46,921 nucleotides of DNA from Candidatus Saccharimonadota bacterium. GTDB taxonomy: Bacteria > Patescibacteriota > Saccharimonadia > CAILAD01 > BJGX01. The stretch is from the NCBI GenBank assembly GCA_037133995.1, contig JBAXNA010000001.1, forward strand, positions 1 to 46,921, written 5' to 3'. Of this stretch, positions 6,551-43,077 are shown one piece after another. The notes beneath the pieces are model-generated. The model searched no databases. It was given only the letters and a program-made list of their open reading frames with translations, and was not told where the DNA came from. Numbering within the stretch: position 1 is the stretch's first letter; each line of letters starts with the position of its first letter. A program made the translations under genes and the position numbers.

Positions 6551-6599
6551 TAAAAAACTATACTACAAGCCAGTCTAGCGGCAGGGCAGTAGGGGTGTT

Positions 6600-9950: not shown

Positions 9951-10160
9951 GTGTTAGAAGTTACTCGAAAAGATGATGAATCAGCAGAAAATTTGGTGCG
10001 TCGTTTCAATAAAAAAGTCATTCAGTCTGGAATCTTAGCCACTGCTCGTAAGAAAAAATATTTCGAAAAGCCTATAAGTAAGACAGAGGCCAGAGCCGTA
10101 GCTATTCGTAAGAGAATTCGAAAAGAAGCTAAAACCCGCGAACTAATGGGTATTAGATAG
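9951..10160 (+). CDS. rpsU: 30S ribosomal protein S21
   Basis: 69 aa and very basic. ENLVRRFNKKVIQSGILATARKKKYFEKP matches the S21 core (ALRRFKR...EKP). GTG start with AAAGGA 10 nt upstream. Confidence 0.85.
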   Translation: MLEVTRKDDESAENLVRRFNKKVIQSGILATARKKKYFEKPISKTEARAVAIRKRIRKEAKTRELMGIR

Positions 10161-22009: not shown

Positions 22010-22432
22010 TTACTTTAGAGTACCTATTTCATATCCTGCCAGAATCCTATTAGCTCCAGCTGAGTGCCCGCTTCTGCGCCCACCTTTAGTATTGTAAGCA
22101 GTGGTGGCATCTTGGCCACAAAATATTAGTATTAAATCGGCTCCACCCGGGTGCATGTCTAAATATTTTGTAACGTCATATACATTACCTTCTATTGCTA
22201 GCCAGCAGTCTCGCGGGGTACTATGTTTTGAAACTTCCGAAAGACCATAGGTATTACCGACAGTCTTACTGGAGTTAGAACTTTGGCTAGGCTCAGATTT
22301 TGAAGGCTGCGAATTATTAATTTGATTCTCGCTATCGGCCTCTTTCTGTTGCTTAGAGATGAAGCCCCAGCCAACCATTGTACCCATAGCAATGAAATAA
22401 AATATTAGAGTAACTAGTACAGCTTTCTTCAT
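22010..22432 (-). CDS. membrane-anchored cytochrome b5-like heme-binding protein
   Basis: 140 aa. One N-terminal TM helix, an S/N/Q-rich linker, then a b5 core WLAIEGNVYDVTKYLDMHPGG...GQDAT...GHS. Both axial His contexts are present (HPGG and GHS). The start overlaps the upstream gene's stop (ATGA). Confidence 0.75.
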   Translation of the reverse strand: MKKAVLVTLIFYFIAMGTMVGWGFISKQQKEADSENQINNSQPSKSEPSQSSNSSKTVGNTYGLSEVSKHSTPRDCWLAIEGNVYDVTKYLDMHPGGADLILIFCGQDATTAYNTKGGRRSGHSAGANRILAGYEIGTLK

Positions 22433-23733
22433 GATAGGTCAAACTCCTCTGTATTTATATTTCGTTTTTTTACACCTAGTTGCTTGAGTTGTGCTTTTAG
22501 GCTTTTCATCATTGACGGTGGACCACATATCATATAATTTGCGCCATCTAAGGACTTACTATTTTTTTGGATGTAGCTAGCGGTAAGATAGTTATTTTTA
22601 CTTTCAGTGAATAAAATAATTTTCAGATTAGATTTTTTGTTGGCTATTTTTTCTAGTGTAGGCAAATAAACTGCATCATCTTTTGTTTTAGCACAATAAT
22701 ACAAATCAACACTCTGGCTATCTTCTAGGGCTTTTGCCATGGATACGAATGGCGTTACTCCAATTCCTCCAGCTATCCATATCTGCCTAGGGTTTTTTAC
22801 AATCGCGTTAGAAAATGTTCCATAAGGACCATCTATTTTTACTTTTGTTCCAGATTCTGCTGTGGCCAGTAGAGCGGTGTAATCACCGAGATTTTTAATA
22901 CCAAAATTAAGAGATTTGTCATTTGGTCCTGAGCTCATAGAGAAAGGATGACTTTCACCAAGAACACCATCTAATTCTAGTTTTATAAAAGCAAACTGTC
23001 CTGGTGCAAATACAAGAGGCTTGTCTTGGGGTGAAAGTTGAAGCTCATAGCTATTACCAAGAGGTATGATTTTATATAAACTATAGTCTAAATATTTAGA
23101 AAAATTACCTTGAAACAATGAACGGTATACGTAGACTACGGCAGCCAGGCCAATTAGTAGCAGGTAATAAATTTGTAAGCCAATCATTCCAGTCTTAATA
23201 GCTAGGTCGCTTCCGCCCACAAAAAATGCGTGAATACCGCCTAAGAATAATACTAGGCCTAGTAAGCGCTGAGCTAATATAAATCTTTTGTAAGCAACAT
23301 GCATATATAGAGTGACTACAATTAGAGCAATCATGCAATATAGGGCGATCACACCTAAATTCTTAAATGGTGACTCAAGACCTGGCTTTACGAACTCATA
23401 AGCAGAAATAGGGGAGCTTAGAAAGTACCTAAATGTAATCAGTAATGGGTGAATGAGAAGTAGTATGAGGGCCAAGCAACCAATAATGTGGTGAGCTCTA
23501 TAGGTGTTATCTAGCCCCATGAAGAGTTTATTATAAATCTTTAGTCTTGCGCTAAGAATAACATTCCAGGCAAAAAGCGCCATACCTGCCAGTCCGGCTA
23601 ATCTGCCAAGATTGTCTGATATATTTTTGGCTGTATCGAACTGAGCCGGCATAGAAACCATCCAAATTGTAATAGGTATAACTGCCACAAATATAGTAAT
23701 AAGCCAGCCAAGATTCGTATAGCGATTTCTCAT
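22429..23733 (-). CDS. NOX / ferric-reductase-family transmembrane flavocytochrome (FRD + FAD + NAD(P)H domains)
   Basis: 434 aa. About 6 TM helices, with a His pair 12-13 residues apart in one helix (YRAHHIIGCLALILLLIHP). The FNR-type module has HPFS (FAD), GGIGVTPF (NAD(P)H) and CGPPSM. Confidence 0.8.
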   Translation of the reverse strand: MRNRYTNLGWLITIFVAVIPITIWMVSMPAQFDTAKNISDNLGRLAGLAGMALFAWNVILSARLKIYNKLFMGLDNTYRAHHIIGCLALILLLIHPLLITFRYFLSSPISAYEFVKPGLESPFKNLGVIALYCMIALIVVTLYMHVAYKRFILAQRLLGLVLFLGGIHAFFVGGSDLAIKTGMIGLQIYYLLLIGLAAVVYVYRSLFQGNFSKYLDYSLYKIIPLGNSYELQLSPQDKPLVFAPGQFAFIKLELDGVLGESHPFSMSSGPNDKSLNFGIKNLGDYTALLATAESGTKVKIDGPYGTFSNAIVKNPRQIWIAGGIGVTPFVSMAKALEDSQSVDLYYCAKTKDDAVYLPTLEKIANKKSNLKIILFTESKNNYLTASYIQKNSKSLDGANYMICGPPSMMKSLKAQLKQLGVKKRNINTEEFDLS

Positions 23734-27981: not shown

Positions 27982-28590
27982 ATGGATGCGCCTAATTTGA
28001 AGACCATGAATAACAAGAATATTTCAAAGTCTGAATTAGTAAATGCTATCACCTCGGCCCAGCAAGGCGACGAAACAGCATTTGAACTATTATATGAATA
28101 TTATTTCTCGCCACTCTACAAGTATGTACTCATAAGAACGGGCGACCCTCAAGAAGCAGATGACCTTACCCAGCTAGTTTTTATAAAGTTCTACCGCAAC
28201 CTAGCTAACTGGCAGGACAAAGGTTTTGCCCCCTCGGCTTACCTGTACACTGTAGCAAGAAGCGTATTGGCAGATCACTATCGTAAAAAAGCAAAACAAG
28301 GCAGCAAGATAACTAATTCAGAAGACGTACTTTTGGCCATAAGCGATAAGTCACAAAACCCGCACCAAGACGTTATAGATAATGAACAATTGCAGCACTT
28401 GTATCAAAATCTTCAACAGTTACCACAAAACTATCAGGAGGTTCTAACACTTCGCTACATAGAAGGTCTTTCGAGTTTGGAAATAGCCAAAATTATTGGC
28501 AAAAATGATGCAGCTACCCGTAAGCAGTTATCTCGAGCAGTTGCTGCCCTAGCCAAGAAATCAAAAAATTACAGAGAAAATAATATATGA
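27982..28590 (+). CDS. ECF-type RNA polymerase sigma-70 factor
   Basis: 202 aa. Region 2 (FELLYEYYFSPLYKYVLIRTGDPQEADDLTQLVFIKF) and region 4 HTH (VLTLRYIEGLSSLEIAKIIGKNDAATRKQLSRA). Confidence 0.85.
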   Translation: MDAPNLKTMNNKNISKSELVNAITSAQQGDETAFELLYEYYFSPLYKYVLIRTGDPQEADDLTQLVFIKFYRNLANWQDKGFAPSAYLYTVARSVLADHYRKKAKQGSKITNSEDVLLAISDKSQNPHQDVIDNEQLQHLYQNLQQLPQNYQEVLTLRYIEGLSSLEIAKIIGKNDAATRKQLSRAVAALAKKSKNYRENNI

Positions 28591-29054
28591 AAACATACCA
28601 AAAAATAGTTGAGCAAGAGCGAGTAGTTAAACAGCTGGAAAAAATCACTGTTGAACCACCTAGCAAGCGCCATCTTTTGCACAGCACATTAGCTAAACTT
28701 GACGATACCAATTATCAGTACCAAGCTACTCGCGAGCGTACTTCAAGAAAACCTGCCTATTCTAGATTAGTTTTTTATATACCCACAGCAGTGGCCGGAT
28801 TACTATTAGTGGCCTGGGTGGCCTCACCTATTCTTAGCAGCCCCAACCAAGCTATAACTTCTTCTAATGTTGCTACCAACCCAAATACTAGACCAAATGG
28901 ATCGATTCAGAATGCTACAAATGCAATAGCCGCCGAAGCTGCTAGCGAAAGCCAGATAGATGAGCAGGCAATTTCTGAAACCCTCTCAGCGGCTAATCAA
29001 ATAGTAGACCAGGCTAATCTAGTTGTGGAGGTAAGCGATGAGAAGGGTCTTTAA
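28587..29054 (+). CDS. putative anti-sigma factor (single-pass membrane protein)
   Basis: 155 aa. Overlaps the sigma gene by 4 nt. One central TM helix (LVFYIPTAVAGLLLVAWVA). The call rests on position only. Confidence 0.45.
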   Translation: MKTYQKIVEQERVVKQLEKITVEPPSKRHLLHSTLAKLDDTNYQYQATRERTSRKPAYSRLVFYIPTAVAGLLLVAWVASPILSSPNQAITSSNVATNPNTRPNGSIQNATNAIAAEAASESQIDEQAISETLSAANQIVDQANLVVEVSDEKGL

Positions 29055-29859
29055 CAGTTATAATATGCTGCTGTCATTAATTATGGCCGCGTCTATTGTT
29101 TTGGTGGGCAGTAAGCCACAGCCAGCACAAGCACAGACCGGTAGTTTAGTAAGATCAGAAATGTCATCAGAAAAACAAGCCAATATGAGCTTAGATAGTT
29201 CTAGATTGAGTGTAGCTAACGACTTTTGTATCAATATACCAAGCTTAGCTACCTCAATCAATCAGGAGGTTTCTAGTAGAATAGAAAAAATGCTAGCTAG
29301 CCAGTCTGTCGCTGGCCAAGAACTTAATAGAAAGTCTATAGAAAGGCAAAATAAAACACTAGCCCAAAGGCAGCAATGGGATAAGAATAGAGAGGCCCAA
29401 TATGATAGCTTATACAAAAAAGCCAAAAATGATGAACAAAAATTAGCGGTTGATACTTTTAAGAATGAAGTAGAAAAAGCCGTGCTGTTGCGCCGCTCAG
29501 CAAATCAGAAAAGCATGAATGAATTTGAAATAACCATAGACGGCTACCTCTTCTCAGAAAAAAATAAGCTTGCACTGGCAACTAGTAACTACCAAAAAAA
29601 CCTAATTTTAGCCACCTCAAAAGCTGTTCGGGAATGCTCTAGTGCTAGTGATCAGAGTAATGCAAGACCAGAGCTAATCAGTACACTCGCGCAGTCTCAA
29701 GTGTATATAAAAAATGGTAGTGCTGAAAACATAACAATTCAAGCTCAAATTGATGAAATTGCTAGTAAAAAAAGAGAAAGTATTAAGGCAGCCAATTTAG
29801 TTTTTGATCAAAAAATTTCTAAGGCCAAAGCAGATTTTGAGAGGACTTTTCAAAAGTAG
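29038..29859 (+). CDS. secreted K/E/Q-rich, probably coiled-coil protein
   Basis: 273 aa. Signal-peptide-like N-terminus ending AQAQ. Overlaps the previous gene by 17 nt. Confidence 0.5.
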   Translation: MRRVFNSYNMLLSLIMAASIVLVGSKPQPAQAQTGSLVRSEMSSEKQANMSLDSSRLSVANDFCINIPSLATSINQEVSSRIEKMLASQSVAGQELNRKSIERQNKTLAQRQQWDKNREAQYDSLYKKAKNDEQKLAVDTFKNEVEKAVLLRRSANQKSMNEFEITIDGYLFSEKNKLALATSNYQKNLILATSKAVRECSSASDQSNARPELISTLAQSQVYIKNGSAENITIQAQIDEIASKKRESIKAANLVFDQKISKAKADFERTFQK

Positions 29860-30501: not shown

Positions 30502-32511
30502 CTAAAATACTTCTGTTCTATTTTGCCAGCGAGGCTTAAGAAGCTCATAGCTGATCATTGAGTATATAAGCATCGATAAAGCAGCAGCGCAGCCCACCGG
30601 GTAGAGCAGAGTTGAAAGTATACTCTGTTTGGAAACAACTGTAATAATGAGCCTATTTAGGTAGCTCAGGCCAATCGCTAGTGCTAGCATCCAGAGTCCG
30701 ATAAACGAATTTATTATGAGTAGGTAACATAGCAAAATACCGGGCAATATCAAGATGAAAAACCCACCACTAACAAGACCGAATGTGAGTGGAAAAGAGA
30801 AGTGTAGGGCTGGGTAGTAGCGCCTAATAGATTGCCTGATCATTAGCCGCAGGCTAGCGTGGTTTTGACTTACGGCAATATCAGAGCCCAAGAAGAAGCC
30901 TGTATTAAGGCCTTTATTTTTAACAGCAGCTGCCAGGTCAAAGTCTTCAAGCGGACTTTTTCGTACCAGACCAAAACCACCTGCAGCAGTAATGCTTGAG
31001 CGCACAAAGGCCATTACGCTACCGCTGGCATTTACAGACTTGGGTCTGGTTTTGGCTAAAAAAGCCGAAGGATACATGCCTAGCATTAGGTAGTGGTTTT
31101 GACTTAGTATCACTTGCTGGGAAAGACTTTTATTTTGGTCGGCCGGCAAGAGCGAGACAAGACTAAGCTTTTGTTCGATTATCAGGCTAGCTATAACGCT
31201 CAGGGCATTTGGCAGAAGTATGGTGTCGGCGCTGGTGAGCAGTACAATATCGCCAGTTGCTTTTTGCAACAGCTGCTCAGACACCCAAGCATTTAAGGTC
31301 CAGCCAGCTTTGAGCGGCTTTGTCTTGACTATTTTGAGGCGAGGATCTTGAAACCCCTCGGCAATTTTTAGGGTGTTATCACTAGAGCCAAGATCAGTAA
31401 ATATAAGCTCAAATTGAGGGTACTGTTGACCTAAAATCGCTAGCATCGTAGATGAAATATTATCAGCCTGGTTGTAGGCGTGCATTATAATACTTATTTT
31501 AGGCAGTTCGCCCTGACGAGCTGTTTTAGGTCTTTTGAAGGCCCTGAGGTTGTAAATAGTAACACCCAGTTGAGCCAAGAAAAATATTATCAAGAAGAAC
31601 CCTAAGATCATTACATAATATTGCCTAATGCCAAAAGGATCAAAAACAAATAGCAAAAGTTGAGCCAGCCAGAAGCCAACCAGTAAATTTAGCCACATAA
31701 AGTTCTGCCAGCCACGACGAAACTTTGCGCTATTGGCATCTGATTTAAACTTGCTAAAAAAACTAGTATTTAGAACGTATAGCCCAATCAGCCCACCAGC
31801 AAAAATTCCAAGTGGAAAATAGGCCACAGTCACCACAAGAGCTGAAAATATATAGAGAGTCATCGCGTATCGATTGGTGCGCTTTGCGCCAAAAAATGTT
31901 GCGATAGAGGCAATTTTGGCTGCTCGGTCTGGTTTAATGTCTTGTATTGCGCCAAATGCCTGACTGGCCATACCCCAGGCCATAAAAGCTATTATCACTG
32001 CCCAGTAGTAATTGTTTGACTGACCATAGGCTAGCCCAAATACAAAAGGCATTACGAAATGCAGTGCAGAATTAATAGAGTCTAAGACGGGCACTTCTTT
32101 GAACCTTAGAGGCTTCGCACTATAGCTGATACAGAAAAAAACTAGTGCAAAAAGTATTACTCTAGACAGATTGTTGCCGGTGATTAGAAAGTAAAGTAAA
32201 AAAGGAATATTAGCTGCAATTATTACGTACCACATAGGGCCATGCTTAGATTTTTCAAGCAAGCCGCCTTCCACAGAGTTTTTGCGGGGGTTCTTCAAGT
32301 CTGATTCATAGTCGTAAATGTCATTAACCCCATACATCAGTAGATTGTATGAAAACAAAAAGTATACAAAGCCGATAATGCCCGGCAGTGCTAAGCTTTG
32401 AGTTGCTAGCAGGTAGCCAACTATAAATGGCACAGCAGTGTTTATCCAGCTCACAGGCCTGCTTGTGGCTAATATCTCTCTTATGCTTAGTGAAGATTTG
32501 TTATTTGTCAT
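30502..32511 (-). CDS. fusion protein: UbiA-family prenyltransferase (lycopene-elongase-like) + family-2 glycosyltransferase
   Basis: 669 aa in one uninterrupted frame. Residues ~1-295 are polytopic, with NDIYDYESD (NDxxDxxxD, nt 32299-32325) and QDIKPDRAAK. Residues ~338-560 form a GT-A fold (ISIIMHAYNQADNISSTMLAILGQQYPQFELIFTDLGSSDNT, LLTSAD). C-terminal TM helices follow. Confidence 0.75.
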   Translation of the reverse strand: MTNNKSSLSIREILATSRPVSWINTAVPFIVGYLLATQSLALPGIIGFVYFLFSYNLLMYGVNDIYDYESDLKNPRKNSVEGGLLEKSKHGPMWYVIIAANIPFLLYFLITGNNLSRVILFALVFFCISYSAKPLRFKEVPVLDSINSALHFVMPFVFGLAYGQSNNYYWAVIIAFMAWGMASQAFGAIQDIKPDRAAKIASIATFFGAKRTNRYAMTLYIFSALVVTVAYFPLGIFAGGLIGLYVLNTSFFSKFKSDANSAKFRRGWQNFMWLNLLVGFWLAQLLLFVFDPFGIRQYYVMILGFFLIIFFLAQLGVTIYNLRAFKRPKTARQGELPKISIIMHAYNQADNISSTMLAILGQQYPQFELIFTDLGSSDNTLKIAEGFQDPRLKIVKTKPLKAGWTLNAWVSEQLLQKATGDIVLLTSADTILLPNALSVIASLIIEQKLSLVSLLPADQNKSLSQQVILSQNHYLMLGMYPSAFLAKTRPKSVNASGSVMAFVRSSITAAGGFGLVRKSPLEDFDLAAAVKNKGLNTGFFLGSDIAVSQNHASLRLMIRQSIRRYYPALHFSFPLTFGLVSGGFFILILPGILLCYLLIINSFIGLWMLALAIGLSYLNRLIITVVSKQSILSTLLYPVGCAAALSMLIYSMISYELLKPRWQNRTEVF

Positions 32512-32794
32512 TTTTAAAATAATTAAATATTGCCGGCACTAGAATAACTGCGGCAACTAAATAGCTAAAGTCTTCTATTGGTATACTACCAATCTTTACC
32601 CCTAGTGTTGAGCTGTTATTATAGCTCACTATAGGCAGGCTTGTCAGGTAGCCGTTAAAAATTAGCATTGCAGGCAGTAAAATAGCAAATGTAATTAAGG
32701 TTGTTTTCTTTCTTGGCCAGCTTAGCTTAGAAAAATAAACTATGGCAAATACCGATAATAATAAAATGATAGCCATGGCTGGGTATTTATACAT
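32501..32794 (-). CDS. lycopene-cyclase-domain small subunit (CrtYd/CrtYf-like)
   Basis: 97 aa with 3 TM helices and an IPIEDFSY (PxE[E/D]) motif. Overlaps the downstream fusion gene by 11 nt. Confidence 0.7.
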   Translation of the reverse strand: MYKYPAMAIILLLSVFAIVYFSKLSWPRKKTTLITFAILLPAMLIFNGYLTSLPIVSYNNSSTLGVKIGSIPIEDFSYLVAAVILVPAIFNYFKNDK

Positions 32795-33156
32795 TATTTA
32801 TTTTTTACCTTTACCTTACTGCCTTGCGCGCTAAGCTTTAAACTTACTAACTGATAAACCATTAGTGTCACATAGCCAAGTAAAAACAAAAATATAAACT
32901 CTTCTAGCGGTAGATTTGGAGTAACAAAATACCAGCCAGAAACATAAGTTTGATTTGTGGTGAAAATACCAATAACAATACCGGCAACGTCAAAACATAA
33001 AAGCAGCAACGCACTAAGCCCTATGGCTAGCCCACTGGCCTTGGCATCTAAAAAAAATGCCAGCCTGTAGCGCCAGTCTGCCAATACCATTCCAGTTATA
33101 CTAAATAGCAAAATGACAATGTAGAAAAAATTAGAATAAACAAAATCAAAATTCAT
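32794..33156 (-). CDS. lycopene-cyclase-domain small subunit (CrtYc/CrtYe-like)
   Basis: 120 aa with 3-4 TM helices and an LPLEEFIFLF (PxEE) motif. 1-nt overlap with its partner subunit gene. Confidence 0.75.
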   Translation of the reverse strand: MNFDFVYSNFFYIVILLFSITGMVLADWRYRLAFFLDAKASGLAIGLSALLLLCFDVAGIVIGIFTTNQTYVSGWYFVTPNLPLEEFIFLFLLGYVTLMVYQLVSLKLSAQGSKVKVKNK

Positions 33157-33199
33157 TGTACTTATTATACTCGCAAATTTCTGATATCATATGTAAATC

Positions 33200-34702
33200 A
33201 TGGCAAAAAATACCAACAAAAGATCAGTAGTTATAGTTGGCGCAGGAATCGGTGGGCTGTGCTCTGCCGCAAGACTTCTTAAAGACGGCTACTCAGTCAC
33301 ATTATATGAAAAAGAAGCCTTGGTGGGTGGTCGCGCGCACCGTATCAAGCAAGATGGCTACACTTTTGATACTGGCCCAACCCTACTTATGATGACAGAC
33401 GTATTGTATGACACCTTTAAATACTGTGGTAAAAACCTAGATGATTATCTAACCCTTTTGCAACTTGAACCAAACTATCAGGTCGCTTTTGCAGATAAAT
33501 CTAGAATAACTGTCAGTAGCAATCTGCCTAAGTTCACTCAAGAGCTGGCCAGGTTTGACCCTAAGGCTCCAGAGCAGTTTTTTAGGTATTTTGCAGATGT
33601 CGCTGAAATATATCGTATTTCTAGAGGCGGCTTCATAGACAAAAATTTTGATAAGTTTAGTGATTTTATAAATATAGGTTCGGGCATCAAGCTCTTAAAA
33701 AAACGCGGAGTTTATAAGCTCTGGAATTTTGTAGGAAAATATTTTAAGGATCCTCGACTAAAACAGCTTTTTAGTTTTCAGAGCATGTACCTCGGTGTTA
33801 GCCCCTATGAAGCACCTGCAGTTTATAGTGTGGTGAGCTATATGGAAACTGGCCTAGGTATCTGGTATCCAAAAGGCGGAATGTATAGTCTCAGCCAAGC
33901 CCTAGAGAAGCTGGTATTAGATTTAGGTGGTGAAATAAAAACCAAAACAGCAGTAAATAAAGTCGTGATTGAAAACGGCAGAGCAAGTGGCGTGGAGATC
34001 AAAAATTCTATTTTTAAGCCAGCCGATATTGTTCTTTGTAACTCAGATCTTGTTTATAGCTATAACAATCTTCTTCCAGAATCTGTAAAGCTAAAAAGTC
34101 TGGGTCGAAAGCCCGAAGATCTTAAGCAGGCTAGCTCGGCGCTACTTTTCTACTGGGGTGTTGACTCTCAGCTAGACGGCATGCTGCACCACAATGTTTA
34201 TCTGTGTAAAGATTTCAAGAATAACTTAGAAGAAATTTTTGATGAAAAGAAACTACCCACAGACCCATCTTTCTATACCTATATTCCTACCAAGACAGAC
34301 CCAAGCCTGGCTCCAAAAGGCAAGAGCGTCGTGTATATCTTGGTTCCGGCCCCAAATCTACAAGGCAAAAACAACTGGGAGTCTGGCATACCTAAGTTAC
34401 GCAAGAAGGTATTAAACAGATTGAAATCAGAGTTTGGCCAAGACATTGAGCCGCTCATAGAGACAGAGGCTGTCTTTACACCACAAGATTTTGAGACCAA
34501 ATTTAATCTCACAGCCGGCTCGGCTTTTGGCCTCACTCACCACTTCATGCAGTCTGGTTATTTTAGACCACACAATGTTGCCAGAGGAGTTAAGGGGCTG
34601 TACTTTGTAGGCGCTAGTACTTACCCTGGCGGAGGGATCCCGATGGTCACTTTAAGTGCTAAGCTTGTACATGAGCGAATTTTAAGTGATAATAAAAATT
34701 AA
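33200..34702 (+). CDS. crtI: phytoene desaturase
   Basis: 500 aa. N-terminal FAD fold VVIVGAGIGGL...LYEK...GGR, a CrtI-type body and the C-terminal GASTYPGGGIPMV motif. Confidence 0.9.
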   Translation: MAKNTNKRSVVIVGAGIGGLCSAARLLKDGYSVTLYEKEALVGGRAHRIKQDGYTFDTGPTLLMMTDVLYDTFKYCGKNLDDYLTLLQLEPNYQVAFADKSRITVSSNLPKFTQELARFDPKAPEQFFRYFADVAEIYRISRGGFIDKNFDKFSDFINIGSGIKLLKKRGVYKLWNFVGKYFKDPRLKQLFSFQSMYLGVSPYEAPAVYSVVSYMETGLGIWYPKGGMYSLSQALEKLVLDLGGEIKTKTAVNKVVIENGRASGVEIKNSIFKPADIVLCNSDLVYSYNNLLPESVKLKSLGRKPEDLKQASSALLFYWGVDSQLDGMLHHNVYLCKDFKNNLEEIFDEKKLPTDPSFYTYIPTKTDPSLAPKGKSVVYILVPAPNLQGKNNWESGIPKLRKKVLNRLKSEFGQDIEPLIETEAVFTPQDFETKFNLTAGSAFGLTHHFMQSGYFRPHNVARGVKGLYFVGASTYPGGGIPMVTLSAKLVHERILSDNKN

Positions 34703-34707
34703 TTTTT

Positions 34708-35784
34708 ATGGAAAACAAAGACCTCAAAAGCTATATAGCCTATATCAAAAAAAATGTTGATGTAGTACTCAAAGATATTTATGATATCAAAATAGCTGAA
34801 GCTGGAAAACTTAGCAGTGATTATAAGAAGCTAGTCACTCAAACGGCCAAGCAGACTCTCAGCGGCGGCAAAAGATTACGGCCAGCTCTAGCAGTTTTGG
34901 GCTACAGCATTGCTGGAGGAAAAGACCTAGAAAAAATTATTAAGGCCTCAGCTGCTTTAGAAATATTTCATAGCTACTTATTAATTCATGACGATATCAT
35001 GGATCGTGATGACCGCCGGCATGGCGTTCTAAACATTACCGGGTTTTACAAGAAGGCCTTGAGTGGCAAGATTGCAGAAAAAGATATACTCCACGCAGCA
35101 GACTCCTTTGCCATACTGGCCGGCGATATCAATAGTGGCTTAACATTTGAACCGCTACTGGCTGCAAATTTTGACTCAAAAGTAACCCTTAAGGCCATAA
35201 GTAGGATTAACCAAGCAGTTTTTGAAGTTGCGGCAGGCCAGCACCTAGATATTATTGGTTCATTTGATAAAAAACTTTCTGAGAAAGAAATTTTAGCAAT
35301 TGCCAAACACAAGACCGCTGACTACTCAATAATATTACCTCTACAGTTTGGCGCAATACTTGCCGGCGCAAAACCAGAGCTTTTAGAAGACATGAAAAAA
35401 TTCGGACAGCCGCTTGGTATTAGCTATCAAATAGCTGACGATGTTTTGGGCATTTTTGGTAGCACCAAGACCATTGGTAAGTCAGTTTTGACAGATCTTC
35501 AAGAGGGGAAGCAGACAATACTAATGCACTATGGAATGAAGCTGGCATCTGTTGACGACAAAAAGTTGTTACAGGCTATTTTTGGCAACCCAAAGGCGGA
35601 TCAAAAAGATCTTGCATTGGTGAAAAAAATATTAGAAAGGTGTGGAGCTAAGGCCAAGACCCTTATTGTTGCAAAAGACTACATTACTAAGTCAATAAGC
35701 TATATACCTTCTTTAACAAGTGATTCAAAAATGCAAGAAAATCTTACTGATTTTGCAAATTATTGTATAAGTCGAAAAAACTAG
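34708..35784 (+). CDS. crtE: polyprenyl (geranylgeranyl) diphosphate synthase
   Basis: 358 aa. FARM LIHDDIMDRDDRRHG, SARM QIADDVLG and GKRLRP. Chain length is not determinable from sequence. Confidence 0.8.
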   Translation: MENKDLKSYIAYIKKNVDVVLKDIYDIKIAEAGKLSSDYKKLVTQTAKQTLSGGKRLRPALAVLGYSIAGGKDLEKIIKASAALEIFHSYLLIHDDIMDRDDRRHGVLNITGFYKKALSGKIAEKDILHAADSFAILAGDINSGLTFEPLLAANFDSKVTLKAISRINQAVFEVAAGQHLDIIGSFDKKLSEKEILAIAKHKTADYSIILPLQFGAILAGAKPELLEDMKKFGQPLGISYQIADDVLGIFGSTKTIGKSVLTDLQEGKQTILMHYGMKLASVDDKKLLQAIFGNPKADQKDLALVKKILERCGAKAKTLIVAKDYITKSISYIPSLTSDSKMQENLTDFANYCISRKN

Positions 35785-35786
35785 CA

Positions 35787-36626
35787 ATGAACAAGGTCAA
35801 ATTTTATACTCAAACATCTCACGATATAAATAAGCTAATTGCTACTCGCTACTCAACGTCTTTTTCCTCAGCCATGAGCTTGCTCGACGAGCCAATTCGA
35901 ACTCACCTATATAGTATTTACGGCTACGTAAGAGTTGCAGACGAACTAGTGGATAGCTTGAGACCTAAAAATAGCCAAAAACAGCTCGACGCATTTATTG
36001 CCGAAACAGACCAGGCCTTAATTTCGGGAACTAGTCTAAATCCAGTAATCCATTCTTTTGCAATAACTGCTAAACGCTACAATATCCCAGATGAGCTTAC
36101 CCGAGCATTTTTTGATAGCATGGCAATGGATATTAAAAAAACAAAATACAGTAAGGCCCAGTACCAGAAGTATATATATGGTTCGGCCGAAGTAGTCGGC
36201 TTGATGTGCCTATGTGTTTTTATTGATGGTAAAAAATCTAAGTTTACAAAACTAAAGCCTGGAGCTCGGGCTTTAGGCTCGGCATTTCAGAAGGTTAATT
36301 TTTTACGCGATATAGCCAGTGACAGCCAAGATCTTGGTAGAGTCTATTTTCCTGGTGTAGACATGAAAAAATTCACCCAAGATGAAAAGGCAAAGGTGAT
36401 AGCTGATATTAGGCTGGAACTCGCAGAGGCATCAAAGGTCATCTCTGCATTGCCTCACTCAAGTAGATATGGCGTGATGCTAGCCTGTCAGTATTATAGC
36501 GCTCTGCTTAGTAAGCTCAGCAAGACTCCAGCTAGTCAGCTAGCTAGTAGCAGGGTTCGTATCAACAATGGCCATAAGGCGGCTATCTACTGCCTGGTCG
36601 TTACCCGCAAGCTACTACATATTTGA
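35787..36626 (+). CDS. crtB: phytoene synthase
   Basis: Squalene/phytoene synthase pattern: YGYVRVADELVD, YIYGSAEVVG and LRDIASDSQDLGRVYFP. I prefer the ATG at 35787, 3 nt after the crtE stop, to the track's TTG at 35763. Confidence 0.85.
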   Translation: MNKVKFYTQTSHDINKLIATRYSTSFSSAMSLLDEPIRTHLYSIYGYVRVADELVDSLRPKNSQKQLDAFIAETDQALISGTSLNPVIHSFAITAKRYNIPDELTRAFFDSMAMDIKKTKYSKAQYQKYIYGSAEVVGLMCLCVFIDGKKSKFTKLKPGARALGSAFQKVNFLRDIASDSQDLGRVYFPGVDMKKFTQDEKAKVIADIRLELAEASKVISALPHSSRYGVMLACQYYSALLSKLSKTPASQLASSRVRINNGHKAAIYCLVVTRKLLHI

Positions 36627-36673: not shown

Positions 36674-38077
36674 ATGACAAAACCCTCCCCCCAAAAATAT
36701 GTTAATGTAGACGGCATCTTATACGATGTAAGCTCGGGCCGAGAGCTTGATAAAAATCAAGTACCTGAAGTTTTGGATCTAAGAAATAATAGTAATCTCT
36801 CAAGACAATCAGTCTCATTGGCAACAGCTGGCTCACCCAGAAAATTCACCACTTATCACTCTAGCTCAGCCCCGCAGCAGCCTCAGCATCAGCCTAAATC
36901 ATCCACTAGGCCACATCTAGATAAACCAAGTAAATCTACTCATCAGGCCAAATCGAGTGATAAGCCAAATGATAACGGCCCTAATGACGCAAAAAAGATT
37001 AGCTTTTTTAGTTTTGTTATTGCCCGCGGTATTCTGCCTCGCGGTAGCCTACAGCTTTGGCAGGCCAGCTTATTTAGAACTATAGCAAGTCCTCAGACCT
37101 GGCTACTACTAAGTCTGCCACTAATACTTGTTCAATTTAGGGTTATACAAAATCTCAATCTGAACCAATTTTTGGTTAAAGCCAAAGACACTGTGACACC
37201 AGAAAATTTTCAGGTAGTAACAGTTTCGCTGGGGGTGATTATGGGTCTGTTTTTGTTAGGCGTTATCGTGCGCTCAATAATTACTTCTGCAGGAGTTCAC
37301 GTCAGGCTCAGAGAAATAGATAATCGACCAGCCAAGCTGAGCCTTGGTATTCAATCTGCCATGCATTCACTTTTGCGCCAAATGCTAAACTACATAGTGC
37401 ACTTTGCAATCATTGTCTTGTGGAGCGGGTTATTAATTTGGCTCACCGCTATGGTTTTAACGACCGGCAATAGTTTGGTTTCAACAAACAAATATCAAAT
37501 AGCCGCAGTCGTAGGTTTTGCCTGGTTATTCGTTATGGTACTGCTCTACACCAAGCACTGGCTTCAGATAGGCCTACTCTCTAGAAGCAGCAAGGTGGCT
37601 CGGGTACAGCTACAGAGTATTTCATTATTGTTTTCGTCTCCTCTAAAAAATGCCATGGCAGGCCTAATAGGATTTTCTTTGTCAGCCAGTGTAATATTGC
37701 TAATTCTAGCGATGAGTTGGTTCGTGACAGATTACTTTATTGCCCAGAAAGGCTCACCAGTGATAGCGATTTTAGTAGTTATTGCTATCACTACTGTAGT
37801 TCTGCTAACAAATCTTACCTATGTACAACAAAATCTCTGGGCCAGGCACTACTATTTTGTGGCATCACTTTCTAAAAATCGTAATCAGCTTTTATATATG
37901 GAGCGCGAAAAGCCGGCTTCAAGCTGGCCTCTATATGTAGCAGTCTTACTGGCCAGTGTCTTTGTGGGCAGTTATTTTTTACTGATCAATCTGTACGGCT
38001 CAAGAATTAGAGGTGAGATGGCCAATATTCACTCGATGATACCAGAAGAAATAAAACTAGTCGTTCCACTAAAATAG
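36674..38077 (+). CDS. hypothetical polytopic membrane protein
   Basis: 467 aa. A ~110-aa soluble, low-complexity N-terminus (S/P/Q/K-rich), then about 8 TM helices. No recognisable motif. Confidence 0.5.
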   Translation: MTKPSPQKYVNVDGILYDVSSGRELDKNQVPEVLDLRNNSNLSRQSVSLATAGSPRKFTTYHSSSAPQQPQHQPKSSTRPHLDKPSKSTHQAKSSDKPNDNGPNDAKKISFFSFVIARGILPRGSLQLWQASLFRTIASPQTWLLLSLPLILVQFRVIQNLNLNQFLVKAKDTVTPENFQVVTVSLGVIMGLFLLGVIVRSIITSAGVHVRLREIDNRPAKLSLGIQSAMHSLLRQMLNYIVHFAIIVLWSGLLIWLTAMVLTTGNSLVSTNKYQIAAVVGFAWLFVMVLLYTKHWLQIGLLSRSSKVARVQLQSISLLFSSPLKNAMAGLIGFSLSASVILLILAMSWFVTDYFIAQKGSPVIAILVVIAITTVVLLTNLTYVQQNLWARHYYFVASLSKNRNQLLYMEREKPASSWPLYVAVLLASVFVGSYFLLINLYGSRIRGEMANIHSMIPEEIKLVVPLK

Positions 38078-39471: not shown

Positions 39472-40443
39472 ATGGCCCAAGCAAAAAAATCAGAAGACAA
39501 ATCAGTAGAAACCAAGCCAAAGGCTGAAAAAATAGCAAAAAAGACTATTGCAGCAGAGGTTACAGAAGAAGTAGTAGTAGAGCCAGTAGTAGAAGCAGCC
39601 AAGGCTACAAAGACAGCTAAGGCCGGTAAAAAAAGTGCCAAAGCACTAGAGGAAGTTGCTGAAAAAGAAGCTAAGCAAGAGCGCAAAGCCAGTAAGCAAG
39701 ATGAAGAAGAGAAACCAAAGCAAGTTCAGAAGCCACGAGTTATCACTTATTCTAAAAATCAAAAAGCCGCTCGTGAGCAAGTAGAAGCTGGTAAGCTATA
39801 CTCTATCACTGAAGCATTGGAGCTTTTACCTAAGCTATCTAAGACTAAATTTGATGCAACTGCAGAAGTACACATTAGCCTAGACATTGACCCTAAACAG
39901 TCAGATCAAAACCTTAGAGCTAGTGCGCCTTTACCAGCTGGTACTGGCAAAACTGTAAAAATAGCTGTAATAACTGGCGAAAAAGATGCAGAGCTAGCTA
40001 AGAAAGCCGGCGCAGATAGCACAAGTGCAGAAAAAATCTTGGCAGACATTGCCAAAGGTAAGCTAGATTTTGATGTCTTGATTGCTAGCCCAGACAAGAT
40101 GGCTGATCTAGGCCGACACGCTAAGGTATTAGGGCCAAAAGGTCTTATGCCATCACCAAAAAGCGGCACTGTCACAAACAACCCGGCCGCTATGGTAGAA
40201 GAAATCAAAAAAGGTAGAGCAGAAATAAAAAATGATGCCCAAGGTATCGTTCATGTAGCTTTTGGTAAGCTTAGTTTTTCTACAAAAGACCTCGAATCAA
40301 ATTTGCGTGTCGTACTAAAGGCAATAAGCGCCAATAAGCCAGCTGGAGTAAAAGGTGTTTATGTTAAGACTGTATATTTAACATCAAGCATGAGCCCAAG
40401 TATTAAACTTGATCCTCTAGAAGCTTTCAAGCCAGCAAAGTAG
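39472..40443 (+). CDS. rplA: 50S ribosomal protein L1 with ~90-aa charged N-terminal extension
   Basis: 323 aa. The L1 core starts near residue 93 (YSITEALELL...DIDPKQSDQNLR...LPAGTGK...FDVLIASPD...LGPKGLMPSPKSGTV). AAAGGAG lies upstream of the ATG at 39472. Confidence 0.9.
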   Translation: MAQAKKSEDKSVETKPKAEKIAKKTIAAEVTEEVVVEPVVEAAKATKTAKAGKKSAKALEEVAEKEAKQERKASKQDEEEKPKQVQKPRVITYSKNQKAAREQVEAGKLYSITEALELLPKLSKTKFDATAEVHISLDIDPKQSDQNLRASAPLPAGTGKTVKIAVITGEKDAELAKKAGADSTSAEKILADIAKGKLDFDVLIASPDKMADLGRHAKVLGPKGLMPSPKSGTVTNNPAAMVEEIKKGRAEIKNDAQGIVHVAFGKLSFSTKDLESNLRVVLKAISANKPAGVKGVYVKTVYLTSSMSPSIKLDPLEAFKPAK

Positions 40444-41338: not shown

Positions 41339-41415
41339 GCTTATGATTGCTCAAAAAAATATAGCTATGTTAAGCTAGACAAGACCTACTAGTGTACCTA
41401 CAAGAAGGAGGCAGA

Positions 41416-43077
41416 ATGAGTGCCAATCAAAATCCATATGTATCTAGAGACGAAGAAGGTAACTGGCAGATCACGCCAGCCGGACATTCGTACCTAGCCC
41501 ATAAAGTCACCAGCTCAGAAGAGCAGGTCTACGCTTTTACCAAAGAAGCCGACCCGGTTGAAATAGCCGCAGCAATGGCAAGGCTTAGTAGGCGCGAAGG
41601 ATCTCTACTGAGCTGTATTCTAGACGAGTTTGCCATCAAAGACGAAGGCGCAGACGACTTGCTAGACAGAGTGATAACTAGCTATGGTGATGACTCAGTC
41701 GCTAATCTATATAGTTTCTATATAGTCAATGAGTCAATCAGTAACCTGGCTACAAAGCAGGTAGAATGGGGTCGACTGGCGTCGTACCTAGAGCAGTCCA
41801 CTCGCTACATCTTCTATACCCAGAAGCAGGCTAATGGTAGGTATAAGTACTACCTGCCTAAGAATTTGCCAGCCGAACTGCTAGCTAAATATATAGAGAT
41901 CAATGACAAGATATTTGATTTGTACTCTAAGACAGTAGAAACTGTCACTGAGTATGTGCGCAGCCAAAATCCTAGACCACAAAAAGATCAAGATCGGGCA
42001 GGCTGGTTGGCCTGGAACGGAGCAACACGAGCTCAGGCTTGTGATGTGGCTAGGGCAATACTGCCAGCATCAACGCTATCAACTGTTGGCATACATGCTT
42101 CAGCGCTTAGTGTTGATAACATGGTCAAGCACCTCTGGGCCCAGCCCTTGGGCGAGCTCAATGAGCTAGGAACAAAAATCCTAAGTGCTTCAAGACAAGT
42201 GGCGCCAGTTTTTATGCGCCGCACAGACCTTGAAGACCGAGGCCTTGCTGACGTTGCATACCGCCGCGACAACAGACAAAAAGTTAAGCAAGTTGTTTCA
42301 GAGCTTAACAGTCTGTACTTGCTTCATAATAAGCCTCATGATGTAGAGGTAAAGATAGTCGACTTCTGGCCATTACGAGAAGAAGATTTTCTGGCTAGAC
42401 TGTTGTTTGCAGAATCAAGTCTGTCCCTAGATCAGCTTCGGGTAAATCTAGAGGTAGTAAAGCTCAACATGCAGCCAAAAGATTTTGAAAAATACATCGC
42501 CAATTGTATCTCGCAATATTGTGGTGAAAGGCTAAATCGCAGACACAAGCCCGGCAGAGCCCTTGAAAAGCCAAGACTAGAAATAGAGATTGTTGGAGAT
42601 TATGGAACATTTCGAGATCTCCAGCGACACCGTATGGTCGATGGGTTTGAGTGGCAAAGGCTTAGCCCAGATTTGGGCTTCGATGTGCCTGGCCTCATTA
42701 TAGAGGCTGGCTGTGAAGATGATTTTCGTGAGGCATTTAGACTTTCAAAAATGCTCTACAGAGAATTTCAGCATGCTGGGTACCCAGAAGAGTCACAGTA
42801 TGCAATCTGTATGGGCTATAGAATGCGTTATAGCTTTATTGCCAATGTACGAGAGCTTTTTCATCTTCTAGAGCTACGCACCAGCCCCCAGGGGCACCCC
42901 GGCTACCGATATATCTGCAACGAAATATATAGCCAGCTAAAAAATATCTGGCCAAATGTTGCTGCCGCCATGATCTATGTCAACAAGACCGATGATCTAG
43001 GTGAGCTGACAAGAATGGCATCTGAGCGAAATACAATTGAAAAATTAAATAAGCTTGGAATAGCCCAAGACCAGTAA
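41416..43077 (+). CDS. thyX: FAD-dependent thymidylate synthase ThyX, double-length form
   Basis: 553 aa from the ATG at 41416 (GAAGGAGG upstream). The ThyX signature DLQRHRMVDGFEWQRLS (RHR...S) lies in the C-terminal half. The N-terminal half is ThyX-like but lacks RHR. Confidence 0.8.
   Translation: MSANQNPYVSRDEEGNWQITPAGHSYLAHKVTSSEEQVYAFTKEADPVEIAAAMARLSRREGSLLSCILDEFAIKDEGADDLLDRVITSYGDDSVANLYSFYIVNESISNLATKQVEWGRLASYLEQSTRYIFYTQKQANGRYKYYLPKNLPAELLAKYIEINDKIFDLYSKTVETVTEYVRSQNPRPQKDQDRAGWLAWNGATRAQACDVARAILPASTLSTVGIHASALSVDNMVKHLWAQPLGELNELGTKILSASRQVAPVFMRRTDLEDRGLADVAYRRDNRQKVKQVVSELNSLYLLHNKPHDVEVKIVDFWPLREEDFLARLLFAESSLSLDQLRVNLEVVKLNMQPKDFEKYIANCISQYCGERLNRRHKPGRALEKPRLEIEIVGDYGTFRDLQRHRMVDGFEWQRLSPDLGFDVPGLIIEAGCEDDFREAFRLSKMLYREFQHAGYPEESQYAICMGYRMRYSFIANVRELFHLLELRTSPQGHPGYRYICNEIYSQLKNIWPNVAAAMIYVNKTDDLGELTRMASERNTIEKLNKLGIAQDQ

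What the first reader, a model, noticed from the sequence alone, without database searches (positions are those of the whole stretch)
30502..32511. Single-ORF fusion of a lycopene-elongase-like UbiA prenyltransferase and a GT2 glycosyltransferase
Seen in sequence: there are 669 codons with no stop or frameshift.
- The N-terminal ~295 aa are a polytopic UbiA-type enzyme, with NDIYDYESD at nt 32299-32325 and a second Asp-rich QDIKPD.
- After one or two linker TM helices, a GT-A/GT2 domain begins near residue 338 (nt ~31500). It has the usual ISIIMxxYNxxxxI...DxGSxDxT and xAD motifs.
- It ends with C-terminal TM helices.

Established knowledge: in known C50 pathways the elongase (CrtEb/CrtE2/LbtBC) and the carotenoid glycosyltransferase (CrtX/CrtQ-type) are separate proteins. 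The fusion I know of, Dietzia LbtBC, joins a cyclase subunit to the elongase, not a GT.

Inference: the fusion could channel an elongated, hydroxylated carotenoid straight to glycosylation in the membrane. I cannot tell whether this architecture is already catalogued.
Basis: partly seen in the sequence, partly recalled or inferred. Interest (0 to 1): 0.65.

Follow-up and report, generated by a model that had tools for sequence, protein, structure and literature searches.

The report
Fused C50-carotenoid elongase–glycosyltransferase in Saccharibacteria
A freshwater Saccharibacterium (a tiny candidate-phyla-radiation bacterium) encodes one membrane protein that joins a carotenoid-lengthening enzyme to a sugar-adding enzyme; the fusion is real, conserved in dozens of Saccharibacteria and Chloroflexota species inside carotenoid gene clusters, and has not been described or tested.

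Summary
Window 30502-32511 (-) is one 669-codon ORF. Residues 1-295 are a CrtEb-type UbiA lycopene elongase: NCBIfam NF009608 scores 322 bits against a cutoff of 217, and both Asp-rich motifs are intact. Then come one return TM helix, a cytoplasmic GT2/GT-A domain with D, D, ED and QxxRR motifs, and three C-terminal TM helices.

It is not an assembly artefact:
- 117 full-length homologues at 99-29% identity.
- 56 species-level genomes carry it (38 Saccharibacteria/Patescibacteria, 18 Chloroflexota).
- Contigs from four independent lake-metagenome studies cross the junction without indels.

In both phyla the fusion directly follows two small lycopene-cyclase-domain genes, next to crtI and crtB. 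This is the actinobacterial crtYe-crtYf-crtEb order, where the elongase is stand-alone.

Most likely it is a bifunctional enzyme of a glycosylated cyclic C50 carotenoid pathway. Direct "channelling" is unproven, because in the known pathway a cyclase step lies between the two activities.

Unexpectedly, some lineages lost the crt genes and the UbiA motifs but kept the GT2 motifs. Another lineage kept the crt genes and UbiA but lost the GT2 catalytic ED motif.

No paper I could search describes the architecture. I rate it a new variant of a known kind, of moderate interest.

The parts
30502..32511 (-). 669-aa fused ORF: CrtEb-type UbiA elongase :: GT2 glycosyltransferase
   Evidence: The AF2 model has pLDDT 91.1 and pTM 0.88.
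31627..32511 (-). UbiA/lycopene-elongase half (residues 1-295, nine TM helices)
   Evidence: Pfam UbiA E 3e-23; NF009608 322 bits against a cutoff of 217. It is 45-51% identical to stand-alone actinobacterial elongases. Foldseek matches AfUbiA 4tq4.
32299..32325 (-). First Asp-rich motif NDIYDYESD (N63, D64, D67, D71)
   Evidence: Read directly from the sequence. It is invariant in every crt-linked locus.
31927..31944 (-). Second Asp-rich motif QDIKPD (D191, D195), followed by R196
31540..31626 (-). Return TM helix (residues 296-324). It corresponds to the native N-terminal TM of CruC/HpnB-like GT2 proteins and brings the chain back to the cytoplasm.
   Evidence: Hydropathy peak 2.49 and AF2 helix 296-324. 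Stand-alone GT2 relatives align from their residue ~5 to query residue ~5 of this half.
30802..31503 (-). Cytoplasmic GT-A (GT2) catalytic domain, residues 337-570, with D373, D429 (SAD), E522-D523 (LEDFD) and Q560..R563-R564
   Evidence: Pfam PF00535 and PF13641; motifs; Foldseek hits to PcManGT 6yv7, BcsA, HAS and SpsA.
30538..30795 (-). Three C-terminal TM helices (residues 573-658)
32501..32794 (-). Lycopene-cyclase-domain subunit (97 aa, CrtYf-like position). Its stop overlaps the fusion's start by 11 nt.
   Evidence: Pfam Lycopene_cyc E 3.7e-15; TIGR03462. Conserved upstream of the fusion in 32 Saccharibacteria and 17 Chloroflexota loci.
32794..33156 (-). Lycopene-cyclase-domain subunit (120 aa, CrtYe-like position)
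   Evidence: TIGR03462 E 3.8e-12; synteny.
33157..33199 (.). 43-bp divergent intergenic region between the cyclase-fusion operon and crtI-GGPPS-crtB
33200..34702 (+). crtI-family phytoene desaturase (500 aa)
   Evidence: TIGR02734 483 bits against a cutoff of 238.
34708..35784 (+). Polyprenyl (GGPP-type) diphosphate synthase (358 aa)
   Evidence: Pfam polyprenyl_synt E 2e-51.
35763..36626 (+). Phytoene synthase crtB (287 aa)
   Evidence: Pfam SQS_PSY E 1e-44.

Best explanation
The ORF encodes a real, bifunctional polytopic membrane enzyme of a C50-carotenoid pathway in a freshwater Saccharibacterium.

- **Upstream pathway (inferred).** GGPP synthase, CrtB and CrtI, encoded on the opposite strand, make lycopene.
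- **N-terminal half (inferred).** This nine-TM CrtEb-type UbiA domain adds C5 units to the lycopene ends, giving a hydroxylated C45/C50 carotenoid.
- **Cyclase (inferred).** The two small cyclase-domain proteins are encoded immediately upstream and are translationally coupled. They form a CrtYe/Yf-like heterodimer that cyclises the ends.
- **C-terminal half (inferred).** This is a CruC/HpnB-like membrane GT2: one TM helix, a cytoplasmic GT-A domain and three TM helices. It transfers a sugar from an NDP-sugar to the hydroxyl groups, giving a C50 carotenoid glycoside.
- **What the fusion does (inferred).** Both active sites face the cytoplasmic leaflet. The fusion fixes a 1:1 stoichiometry and places the first and last tailoring enzymes together in the membrane, probably as the core of a small metabolon with the cyclase. 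It is not a strict two-step channel.

Shown here: the ORF, its domains, motifs, topology, conservation and gene context. Inferred: the substrates, the product and any channelling.
For: **ORF and domains**
-.

**UbiA half**
- NF009608 scores 322 bits against a cutoff of 217. The same model scores 412-469 bits on stand-alone elongases of Georgenia, Brachybacterium, Brevibacterium and Lysinibacter; for Georgenia, Brevibacterium and Lysinibacter the crtE/B/I-crtYe/Yf-crtEb cluster context was seen here.
- NDxxDxxxD and DxxxD are intact.

**GT2 half**
- PF00535 is above its cutoff, and the D, D, ED and QxxRR motifs are present.
- The closest stand-alone relatives are 360-400 aa, align end to end at 25-32% identity, and three of them are labelled chlorobactene glucosyltransferase by JGI.
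- They hit the same HpnB/CruG models.

**Topology and fold**
- Hydropathy and charge distribution follow the positive-inside rule.
- AF2: pLDDT 91, pTM 0.88.

**Context and conservation**
- The order cyclase-cyclase-fusion next to crtI/crtB is conserved in 32 of 38 Saccharibacteria loci and in 17-18 of 18 Chloroflexota loci.
- The order matches actinobacterial crtYe-crtYf-crtEb.
- There are 117 full-length homologues, junction-spanning contigs from four studies, and dN of about 0.1 with dS saturated.
Against: - There is no biochemical or transcript evidence. The metatranscriptomes of the same lake samples held nothing usable.
- The GT2 half scores far below the curated cutoffs of CruG (59 against 600) and HpnB (106 against 379). 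Its acceptor is therefore inferred from gene context only.
- Two distant stand-alone relatives are not in crt clusters.
- Lineages that lost crtI, crtB and the cyclases, and whose UbiA motifs decayed, still keep intact GT2 motifs. This suggests the GT2 can serve another acceptor.
- A lineage with a complete crt cluster has lost the GT2 ED motif.
- In the known pathway a cyclase step separates elongation from glycosylation.
- Freshwater Saccharimonadia are reported to lack C5 isoprenoid synthesis (PMC9166423). No idi, MEP or MVA gene lies in the window, and the rest of the genome could not be searched.
Confidence: 0.6

Rival explanations
1. The UbiA half is a carotenoid elongase, but the GT2 half glycosylates a different membrane acceptor, such as another terpenoid, a polyprenyl phosphate or an envelope glycolipid. 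On this view the fusion only anchors or co-regulates the two enzymes.
For: - The GT2 motifs stay intact in lineages that lost crtI, crtB and the cyclases and whose UbiA motif 1 decayed (L033, L034, L066, L067).
- The GT2 half is below the cutoff for every carotenoid GT model.
- The distant stand-alone relatives P0245 and P0250 are not in crt clusters.
Against: - In two phyla the fusion partner is always a CrtEb-type elongase, and the gene sits inside the crt cluster.
- Three of the closest stand-alone relatives are annotated as CruC-type carotenoid glucosyltransferases.
- Glycosylated C50 carotenoids are the normal end products of the homologous actinobacterial pathways.
Confidence: 0.2
2. The cluster makes acyclic bacterioruberin-type C50 carotenoids (a LyeJ-like elongase/hydratase), as proposed for Baikal Patescibacteria.
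For: PMC9948471 reports lyeJ, crtD and cruF hits in Patescibacteria, including Baikal-deep-G192. That genome carries this same fusion (L016).
Against: - Two lycopene-cyclase-domain genes immediately precede the fusion here and in L016.
- The UbiA half passes the model on which the actinobacterial crtYe/Yf-linked elongases score 412-469 bits (NF009608). It fails the other prenyltransferase equivalogs: NF009516 at 152 bits against 205, and NF010119 at 158 against 248.
- No CruF-like family was found in the window.
- The desaturase passes the crtI-family model but not the CrtD cutoffs.
Confidence: 0.1
3. The pathway is a decaying relic in this organism, with no functional product, because the cell cannot make IPP/DMAPP.
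For: - Freshwater Saccharimonadia reportedly lack C5 isoprenoid synthesis.
- Related lineages show loss of the cluster and decay of catalytic motifs.
Against: - In this window every crt ORF is intact and all catalytic motifs are present.
- dN is about 0.1 against the closest relative while dS is saturated.
- The same intact seven-gene arrangement persists across about 30 species down to 44% identity.
- The cell must obtain C5 units anyway. From my own knowledge, peptidoglycan synthesis needs undecaprenyl phosphate.
Confidence: 0.07
4. The single ORF is an assembly or frameshift artefact that joins two adjacent genes.
For: None found.
Against: - 117 full-length fused homologues at 29-99% identity from NCBI, JGI, ENA and Logan assemblies.
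- 56 species-level genomes carry it.
- Independent contigs from four studies span the junction without indels.
- The junction helix is modelled at pLDDT of roughly 88-97.
Confidence: 0.01

Closest known systems
CrtEb lycopene elongase of Corynebacterium glutamicum and related Micrococcales (crtYe-crtYf-crtEb clusters)
   Same: - Same NCBIfam equivalog, NF009608.
- 45-51% identity.
- Same Asp-rich motifs.
- Same gene order, cyclase-cyclase-elongase, next to crtE/B/I.
   Different: - There the protein is a stand-alone enzyme of about 290 aa. Here it carries a C-terminal 374-aa TM+GT2 module.
- The organism is a CPR bacterium, not an actinobacterium.
- In the tree the fused UbiA halves lie outside the sampled actinobacterial clade, so they are not nested within it.
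LbtBC of Dietzia sp. CQ4 (C50 cyclase subunit fused to the elongase)
   Same: It is a fusion protein in a C50 pathway that contains the elongase.
   Different: In LbtBC the fusion partner is the cyclase subunit, at the N-terminus of the elongase. Here both cyclase subunits are separate ORFs, and the partner is a GT2 at the C-terminus.
CruC / CruG / HpnB-type membrane GT2 glycosyltransferases of terpenoid lipids (chlorobactene glucosyltransferase, myxol 2'-O-glycosyltransferase, hopanoid-associated GT)
   Same: - Same build: an N-terminal TM helix, a GT-A domain and C-terminal TM helices.
- They align end to end at 25-32% identity.
- D, D and ED motifs are shared.
- They are the best NCBIfam hits, and JGI names three of the closest relatives chlorobactene glucosyltransferase.
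   Different: - Scores are far below the curated cutoffs (HpnB 106 against 379; CruG 59 against 600), so this is a separate subfamily.
- This subfamily is found almost only fused to a UbiA domain. Only 20 representatives reach E<1e-30, and most of them are fused or fragments.
CrtX of Pantoea (zeaxanthin glucosyltransferase), and 'crtX' of actinobacterial C50 clusters
   Same: The presumed role is the same: glycosylation of carotenoid hydroxyl groups with an NDP-sugar.
   Different: - From my own knowledge, Pantoea CrtX is a soluble GT1/GT-B enzyme. The domain here is a membrane GT2/GT-A.
- I could not obtain an actinobacterial CrtX sequence to compare. No GT2 homologue lies within 8-10 kb of the elongase in the five actinobacterial loci examined.

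Membership tests
UbiA superfamily / CrtEb-type lycopene elongase (NCBIfam NF009608) | Profile score above the curated cutoff | tested here: met
   Pfam UbiA 82.8 bits against 34.2. NF009608 322 bits against 217 over residues 8-288. Stand-alone actinobacterial elongases, three of four seen here in crtYe/Yf clusters, score 412-469 bits on the same model.
UbiA superfamily / CrtEb-type lycopene elongase (NCBIfam NF009608) | Two Asp-rich motifs (NDxxDxxxD and DxxxD) on cytoplasmic loops | tested here: met
   N63-D64-D67-D71 and D191-D195 are present. They are invariant in all crt-linked loci. The loops carrying them are K/R-rich.
UbiA superfamily / CrtEb-type lycopene elongase (NCBIfam NF009608) | Fold of about nine TM helices | tested here: met
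   AF2 helices in residues 19-290. Foldseek against AfUbiA 4tq4 gives TM-score 0.66-0.68 on the target.
UbiA superfamily / CrtEb-type lycopene elongase (NCBIfam NF009608) | Linkage to crtE/B/I and heterodimeric cyclase genes | tested here: met
UbiA superfamily / CrtEb-type lycopene elongase (NCBIfam NF009608) | Converts lycopene to C45/C50 carotenoids | not testable with these tools
   This needs heterologous expression and LC-MS.
Glycosyltransferase family 2 (GT-A fold) | PF00535 above the gathering score, with the D, DxD-like, ED and QxxRW-like signature | tested here: met
   PF00535 52.3 bits against 23.3; PF13641 43.9 against 27. D373, D429, E522-D523 and Q560..R563-R564 are present. Foldseek hits GT2 structures.
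CruG (NF045692) / HpnB (TIGR03469) equivalogs | Score above the curated cutoff | tested here: not met
   CruG 59.5 against 600; HpnB 105.7 against 379. The broad architecture is the same, but it is not a member of either equivalog.
LbtBC-type cyclase-elongase fusion | Lycopene-cyclase domain fused N-terminally to the elongase | tested here: not met
   The cyclase domains are separate 120-aa and 97-aa ORFs. The fused ORF has no Lycopene_cyc hit.
Bacterioruberin pathway (LyeJ-CrtD-CruF) | Elongase/hydratase together with CruF and CrtD, and no C50 cyclase | tested here: not met
   Cyclase genes are present, and no CruF-type family was found in the window. The desaturase is below the CrtD cutoffs. 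NF009516 scores 152 against 205. The rest of the genome could not be searched.
GT1 CrtX (Pantoea-type zeaxanthin glucosyltransferase) | GT-B fold / UDP-glycosyltransferase domain | tested here: not met
   Only GT2/GT-A families hit.

The most novel reading that the evidence does not exclude
The UbiA and GT2 modules are structurally interdependent, and the UbiA barrel doubles as a carotenoid-binding or hand-over module.

- In full-cluster Saccharibacteria, the fusion plus the two cyclase subunits would form a membrane metabolon. It would make C50 carotenoid glycosides from C5 precursors taken from the host.
- In lineages that lost lycopene synthesis, the catalytically dead UbiA half would be kept as a pseudoenzyme. 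It would present host-derived carotenoids, or another terpenoid lipid, to the still-active GT2.
- That would be a way for an epibiont to modify lipids scavenged from its (actinobacterial?) host.
Probability: 0.15. Interest if true: 0.75.

Novelty: new variant of a known kind. Interest (0 to 1): 0.52.

Why it matters
1. **A candidate C50 carotenoid glycosyltransferase.** The fusion works as a 'Rosetta-stone' link. It points to a specific, previously unnamed subfamily of membrane GT2 as the C50 carotenoid glycosyltransferase in Saccharibacteria and Chloroflexota. In the model organism the enzyme for this step was still described as unknown in 2012.
2. **A correction to the one published reading.** A widespread clade of freshwater Saccharibacteria keeps a complete seven-gene pigment pathway at a fixed chromosomal site. 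These organisms have minimal genomes and are reported to lack C5 isoprenoid and lipid synthesis. Their gene set fits cyclic C50 carotenoid glycosides, not bacterioruberin as proposed for Baikal Patescibacteria.
3. **A natural experiment.** The two halves decay reciprocally in different lineages while the fused architecture persists. This makes it possible to ask whether fused pathway enzymes are held together by catalysis or by structure.
4. **A practical use.** A single gene giving elongation plus glycosylation could be useful for engineering water-dispersible C50 carotenoids.

Tried and rejected
- **Whole-genome search.** The genome search and the fetch from genomes were shut. I could not look for MEP/MVA genes, idi, cruF, rhodopsin or blh elsewhere in this genome, or for crt genes elsewhere in the crt-less relatives.
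- **Assembly artefact.** Rejected.
- **Independent fusions in Saccharibacteria and Chloroflexota.**
  - I suspected this at first. The GT2 halves are only about 20% identical, and the Chloroflexota halves score below many stand-alone GT2 proteins. A FastTree needed 3 changes.
  - An IQ-TREE then placed all fused proteins plus one stand-alone protein on one side of a 93% branch.
  - The AU test does not reject one clade: p = 0.57, and the constrained tree is better by 7.4 lnL.
  - The UbiA tree needs one change.
  - A single ancient fusion is therefore compatible with the data. Multiple origins are not supported, but not excluded either.
- **Recent transfer of the elongase from actinobacterial hosts.** Not supported. 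The fused UbiA halves form their own group beside the sampled actinobacterial sequences, not inside them. Branch support is weak and the tree is unrooted.
- **Transcript evidence.** The three metatranscriptomes from the same lake samples gave only spurious 18-22-nt matches.
- **Context of stand-alone GT2 relatives.** P0245 and P0250 were uninformative.
- **PDB sequence and fold searches.** No solved protein combines both domains.
- **Literature.** Eight searches found no description of an elongase-GT fusion. The library lacks most subscription journals, so absence is not proof.
- **dN/dS.** No ratio could be computed because dS is saturated.
Full report
**Observation.** Window 30502..32511 (minus strand) is a single 669-codon ORF with an ATG start and no internal stop.
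- NDIYDYESD is residues 63-71, nt 32299-32325.
- QDIKPD is residues 190-195.
- The GT2 domain begins at residue ~337, nt ~31500.
- Pfam gives UbiA at 27-272 (E 3e-23), Glycos_transf_2 at 340-454 and Glyco_tranf_2_3 at 337-566.

**Anatomy.**
- Hydropathy and an AlphaFold2 model built on 69 family members (pLDDT 91.1, pTM 0.88) agree on the layout. There are nine UbiA TM helices (residues ~19-290), one further TM helix (296-324), a GT-A domain (337-570) and three C-terminal TM helices (573-658).
- Loop charges follow the positive-inside rule. The two Asp-rich loops and the GT-A domain therefore all face the cytoplasm. Helix 296-324 is what brings the chain back in after the odd-numbered UbiA bundle.
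- This helix is not an invented linker. Stand-alone relatives of the GT2 half (360-400 aa) align from their own residue ~5, so it is their native N-terminal TM.
- The GT2 half has the classical D (D373), DxD-like (SAD, D429), ED (E522-D523) and QxxRW-like (Q560..R563-R564) signature.
- Foldseek finds membrane GT2 enzymes (PcManGT 6yv7, BcsA, HAS) and SpsA for one half and AfUbiA (4tq4) for the other. It finds no solved protein with both.

**Context in the window.**
- On the same strand, with overlapping stop and start codons, lie two lycopene-cyclase-domain genes: 120 aa at 32794-33156 and 97 aa at 32501-32794.
- Across a 43-bp gap on the other strand lie crtI, a GGPP-type polyprenyl synthase and crtB.
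- Everything else in the 47 kb is housekeeping: fmt, def, priA, secDF, recJ, ftsAZ, leuS, nusG-rplKA, dcd-thyX-glyA and ABC/FtsX exporters. The cluster is chromosomal. The window holds no rhodopsin, blh, cruF, idi or MEP/MVA gene.

**Not an artefact.**
- A search of 5.8 billion proteins returned 220 hits. Of the 120 best, 117 are full-length fusions of >=600 aa at 99-29% identity, from NCBI, JGI, ENA and Logan. Where named, they are 'prenyltransferase [Candidatus Saccharibacteria]' or Chloroflexota.
- The exact sequence occurs in lake and freshwater metagenomes from at least 10 studies. Contigs from four of them cross the domain junction with substitutions only.
- Against the closest relative, dN is about 0.10-0.12 while dS is saturated.

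**Distribution and synteny.** A scan of species-representative genomes found 60 loci:
- 38 Saccharibacteria/Patescibacteria, including Baikal-deep-G192 and G207.
- 18 Chloroflexota, both groups carrying the fusion.
- 4 Actinobacteria with only the UbiA part.

In 32 of the 38 Saccharibacteria loci the block nusG...(8-TM protein)-crtB-GGPPS-crtI <> cyc-cyc-fusion sits at the same chromosomal site. In Chloroflexota the order is cyc-cyc-fusion-crtI-crtB. Georgenia muralis shows the classical actinobacterial arrangement MarR | idi-crtE-crtB-crtI-crtYe-crtYf-crtEb, with a stand-alone 296-aa elongase and no GT nearby.

**Relationships of the halves.**
- *UbiA half.* It is 45-51% identical to stand-alone ~290-aa prenyltransferases of Micrococcales and Actinomycetaceae. 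It passes NF009608 at 322 bits against a cutoff of 217. Stand-alone elongases of Georgenia, Brachybacterium, Brevibacterium and Lysinibacter score 412-469 bits on the same model.
- *GT2 half.* Close relatives are almost all fused. Only 20 of 1.84 billion representatives reach E<1e-30. There are thousands of stand-alone relatives at 25-32% identity. Three of the closest are labelled chlorobactene glucosyltransferase (CruC) by JGI, and they hit the same HpnB/CruG models. The window's domain is far below those models' cutoffs, so it is a distinct subfamily.

**One fusion or several?**
- The Chloroflexota fusions are 41-43% identical in the UbiA half but only about 20% in the GT2 half.
- Even so, the UbiA tree needs only one fused/unfused change.
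- An IQ-TREE of GT2 domains puts all fused proteins plus one stand-alone protein on one side of a 93% branch.
- The AU test does not reject a single clade, p = 0.57.
- One ancient fusion is the simplest reading. The direction of transfer between phyla is unresolved.

**Reciprocal decay (new here).**
- Every crt-linked locus has intact UbiA motifs.
- About 12 of 103 Saccharibacteria-type proteins (P0097, P0099, P0100, P0103 and others) have lost motif 1, and the two scored (P0099, P0100) fall to 111-129 bits on NF009608.
- All four loci of this kind that I examined lack crtI, crtB and the cyclases (L033, L034, L066, L067). L067 keeps only the GGPP synthase. All keep every GT2 motif.
- Conversely, the P0101/P0105 lineage (L035) has a full crt cluster and an intact UbiA half (342 bits). 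Its ED motif is replaced by GN or IA, confirmed by pairwise alignment against fused and stand-alone relatives that keep it.
- Two further crt-less loci (L024, L029) still have near-intact UbiA motifs.
- The architecture therefore outlives either catalytic centre. This argues that the halves depend on each other structurally. It also argues that the GT2 can have a role beyond the cell's own C50 carotenoid.

**Mechanism.**
- *Shown:* the ORF, domains, motifs, topology, context and conservation.
- *Inferred from the characterised C. glutamicum pathway (PMC3598387):*
  - Lycopene is elongated by the UbiA half to a hydroxylated acyclic C50 carotenoid.
  - The CrtYe/Yf-like pair cyclises it.
  - The GT2 half glycosylates the hydroxyl groups from an NDP-sugar.
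- Because the cyclase step lies between the two activities, 'straight channelling' is unlikely as stated. A membrane metabolon with fixed 1:1 stoichiometry is the more defensible version.
- *Caveats:*
  - There are no transcripts and no biochemistry.
  - Freshwater Saccharimonadia reportedly lack C5 isoprenoid synthesis (PMC9166423), so precursor supply is open.
  - The genome search was shut.

**Comparison with what is known, and novelty.**
- In Actinobacteria crtEb, crtYe/Yf and crtX are separate genes, and the only described fusion is LbtBC, a cyclase subunit joined to the elongase.
- The Baikal study (PMC9948471) detected 'lyeJ/crtD/cruF' in Patescibacteria and inferred bacterioruberin. 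It does not mention a fusion or a glycosyltransferase. Its genome G192 carries exactly this cyc-cyc-fusion cluster (L016), so a cyclic C50 glycoside fits better.
- Eight literature searches found no description of the architecture.
- I classify it as a new variant of a known kind. It is of moderate interest to specialists in carotenoids and in CPR bacteria, and it can be tested directly by heterologous expression.

Noticed in passing
L033, L034, L066, L067 (fusion at 7968-9965 in L033; 8183-10000 in L066; 10001-11983 in L067): These Saccharibacteria lineages keep the fused gene beside secE-nusG but have lost crtI, crtB and both cyclases. L067 retains only the GGPP synthase. Their UbiA Asp-rich motif 1 is degenerate, and the two scored (P0099, P0100) reach 111-129 bits on NF009608, while all GT2 catalytic residues are intact.
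   Followed up: partly
L035 (fusion 8001-10004); proteins P0101 and P0105: This lineage has a complete crt cluster and an intact UbiA half. The GT2 'ED' catalytic-base motif is replaced (GN or IA), and the GT2 half is only 28-30% identical to the window's.
   Followed up: partly
L016-L019, L021, L022, L024, L033, L034, L037: In this subclade the GT2 nucleotide-binding motif D-x-x-S-x-D is changed to N-x-x-[NRH]-x-[PL], while D429 and ED are kept. That may mean a different sugar donor.
   Followed up: no
window 36674-38077 (+): A 467-aa protein sits directly after crtB. It has a disordered S/P/Q/K-rich N-terminus and about 8 TM helices, and no Pfam or NCBIfam hit. It is conserved at this position in most Saccharibacteria loci and is also retained in crt-less loci (L024, and probably L033 and L067), so it is probably not carotenoid-specific.
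   Followed up: partly
window 27982-29859 (+): An ECF sigma factor is followed by a 155-aa single-pass membrane protein (a putative anti-sigma) and a 273-aa secreted K/E/Q-rich protein, downstream of an ABC/FtsX exporter. The set is syntenic with the crt cluster in many Saccharibacteria loci. A regulatory link to carotenogenesis was not tested.
   Followed up: no
window 22010-23733 (-): A ferric-reductase/NOX-like flavocytochrome (434 aa: Ferric_reduct + FAD_binding_8 + NAD_binding_1) is followed by a cytochrome-b5-domain protein (140 aa). This is unusual redox equipment for a CPR genome.
   Followed up: no
window 41392-43077 (+): A double-length ThyX (561 aa) with two Thy1 stretches in Pfam.
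   Followed up: no
window 39472-40443 (+): Ribosomal protein L1 is 323 aa, and its Pfam L1 match starts only at residue 121. It therefore has a long N-terminal extension.
   Followed up: no
L016 (Baikal-deep-G192), 3922-9980: This genome was cited in PMC9948471 as encoding a bacterioruberin pathway. It carries the same crtB-GGPPS-crtI <> cyc-cyc-fusion cluster, so the published 'lyeJ' is this fusion, and a cyclic glycosylated C50 product fits better.
   Followed up: partly
proteins P0269 (642 aa) and P0357 (667 aa): These are further UbiA::GT2 fusions with strongly divergent UbiA halves (NF009608 only 44-51 bits). They come from unnamed metagenome contigs. P0357 groups with the Chloroflexota-type GT2 halves, and P0269 groups with the stand-alone protein P0273.
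   Followed up: no
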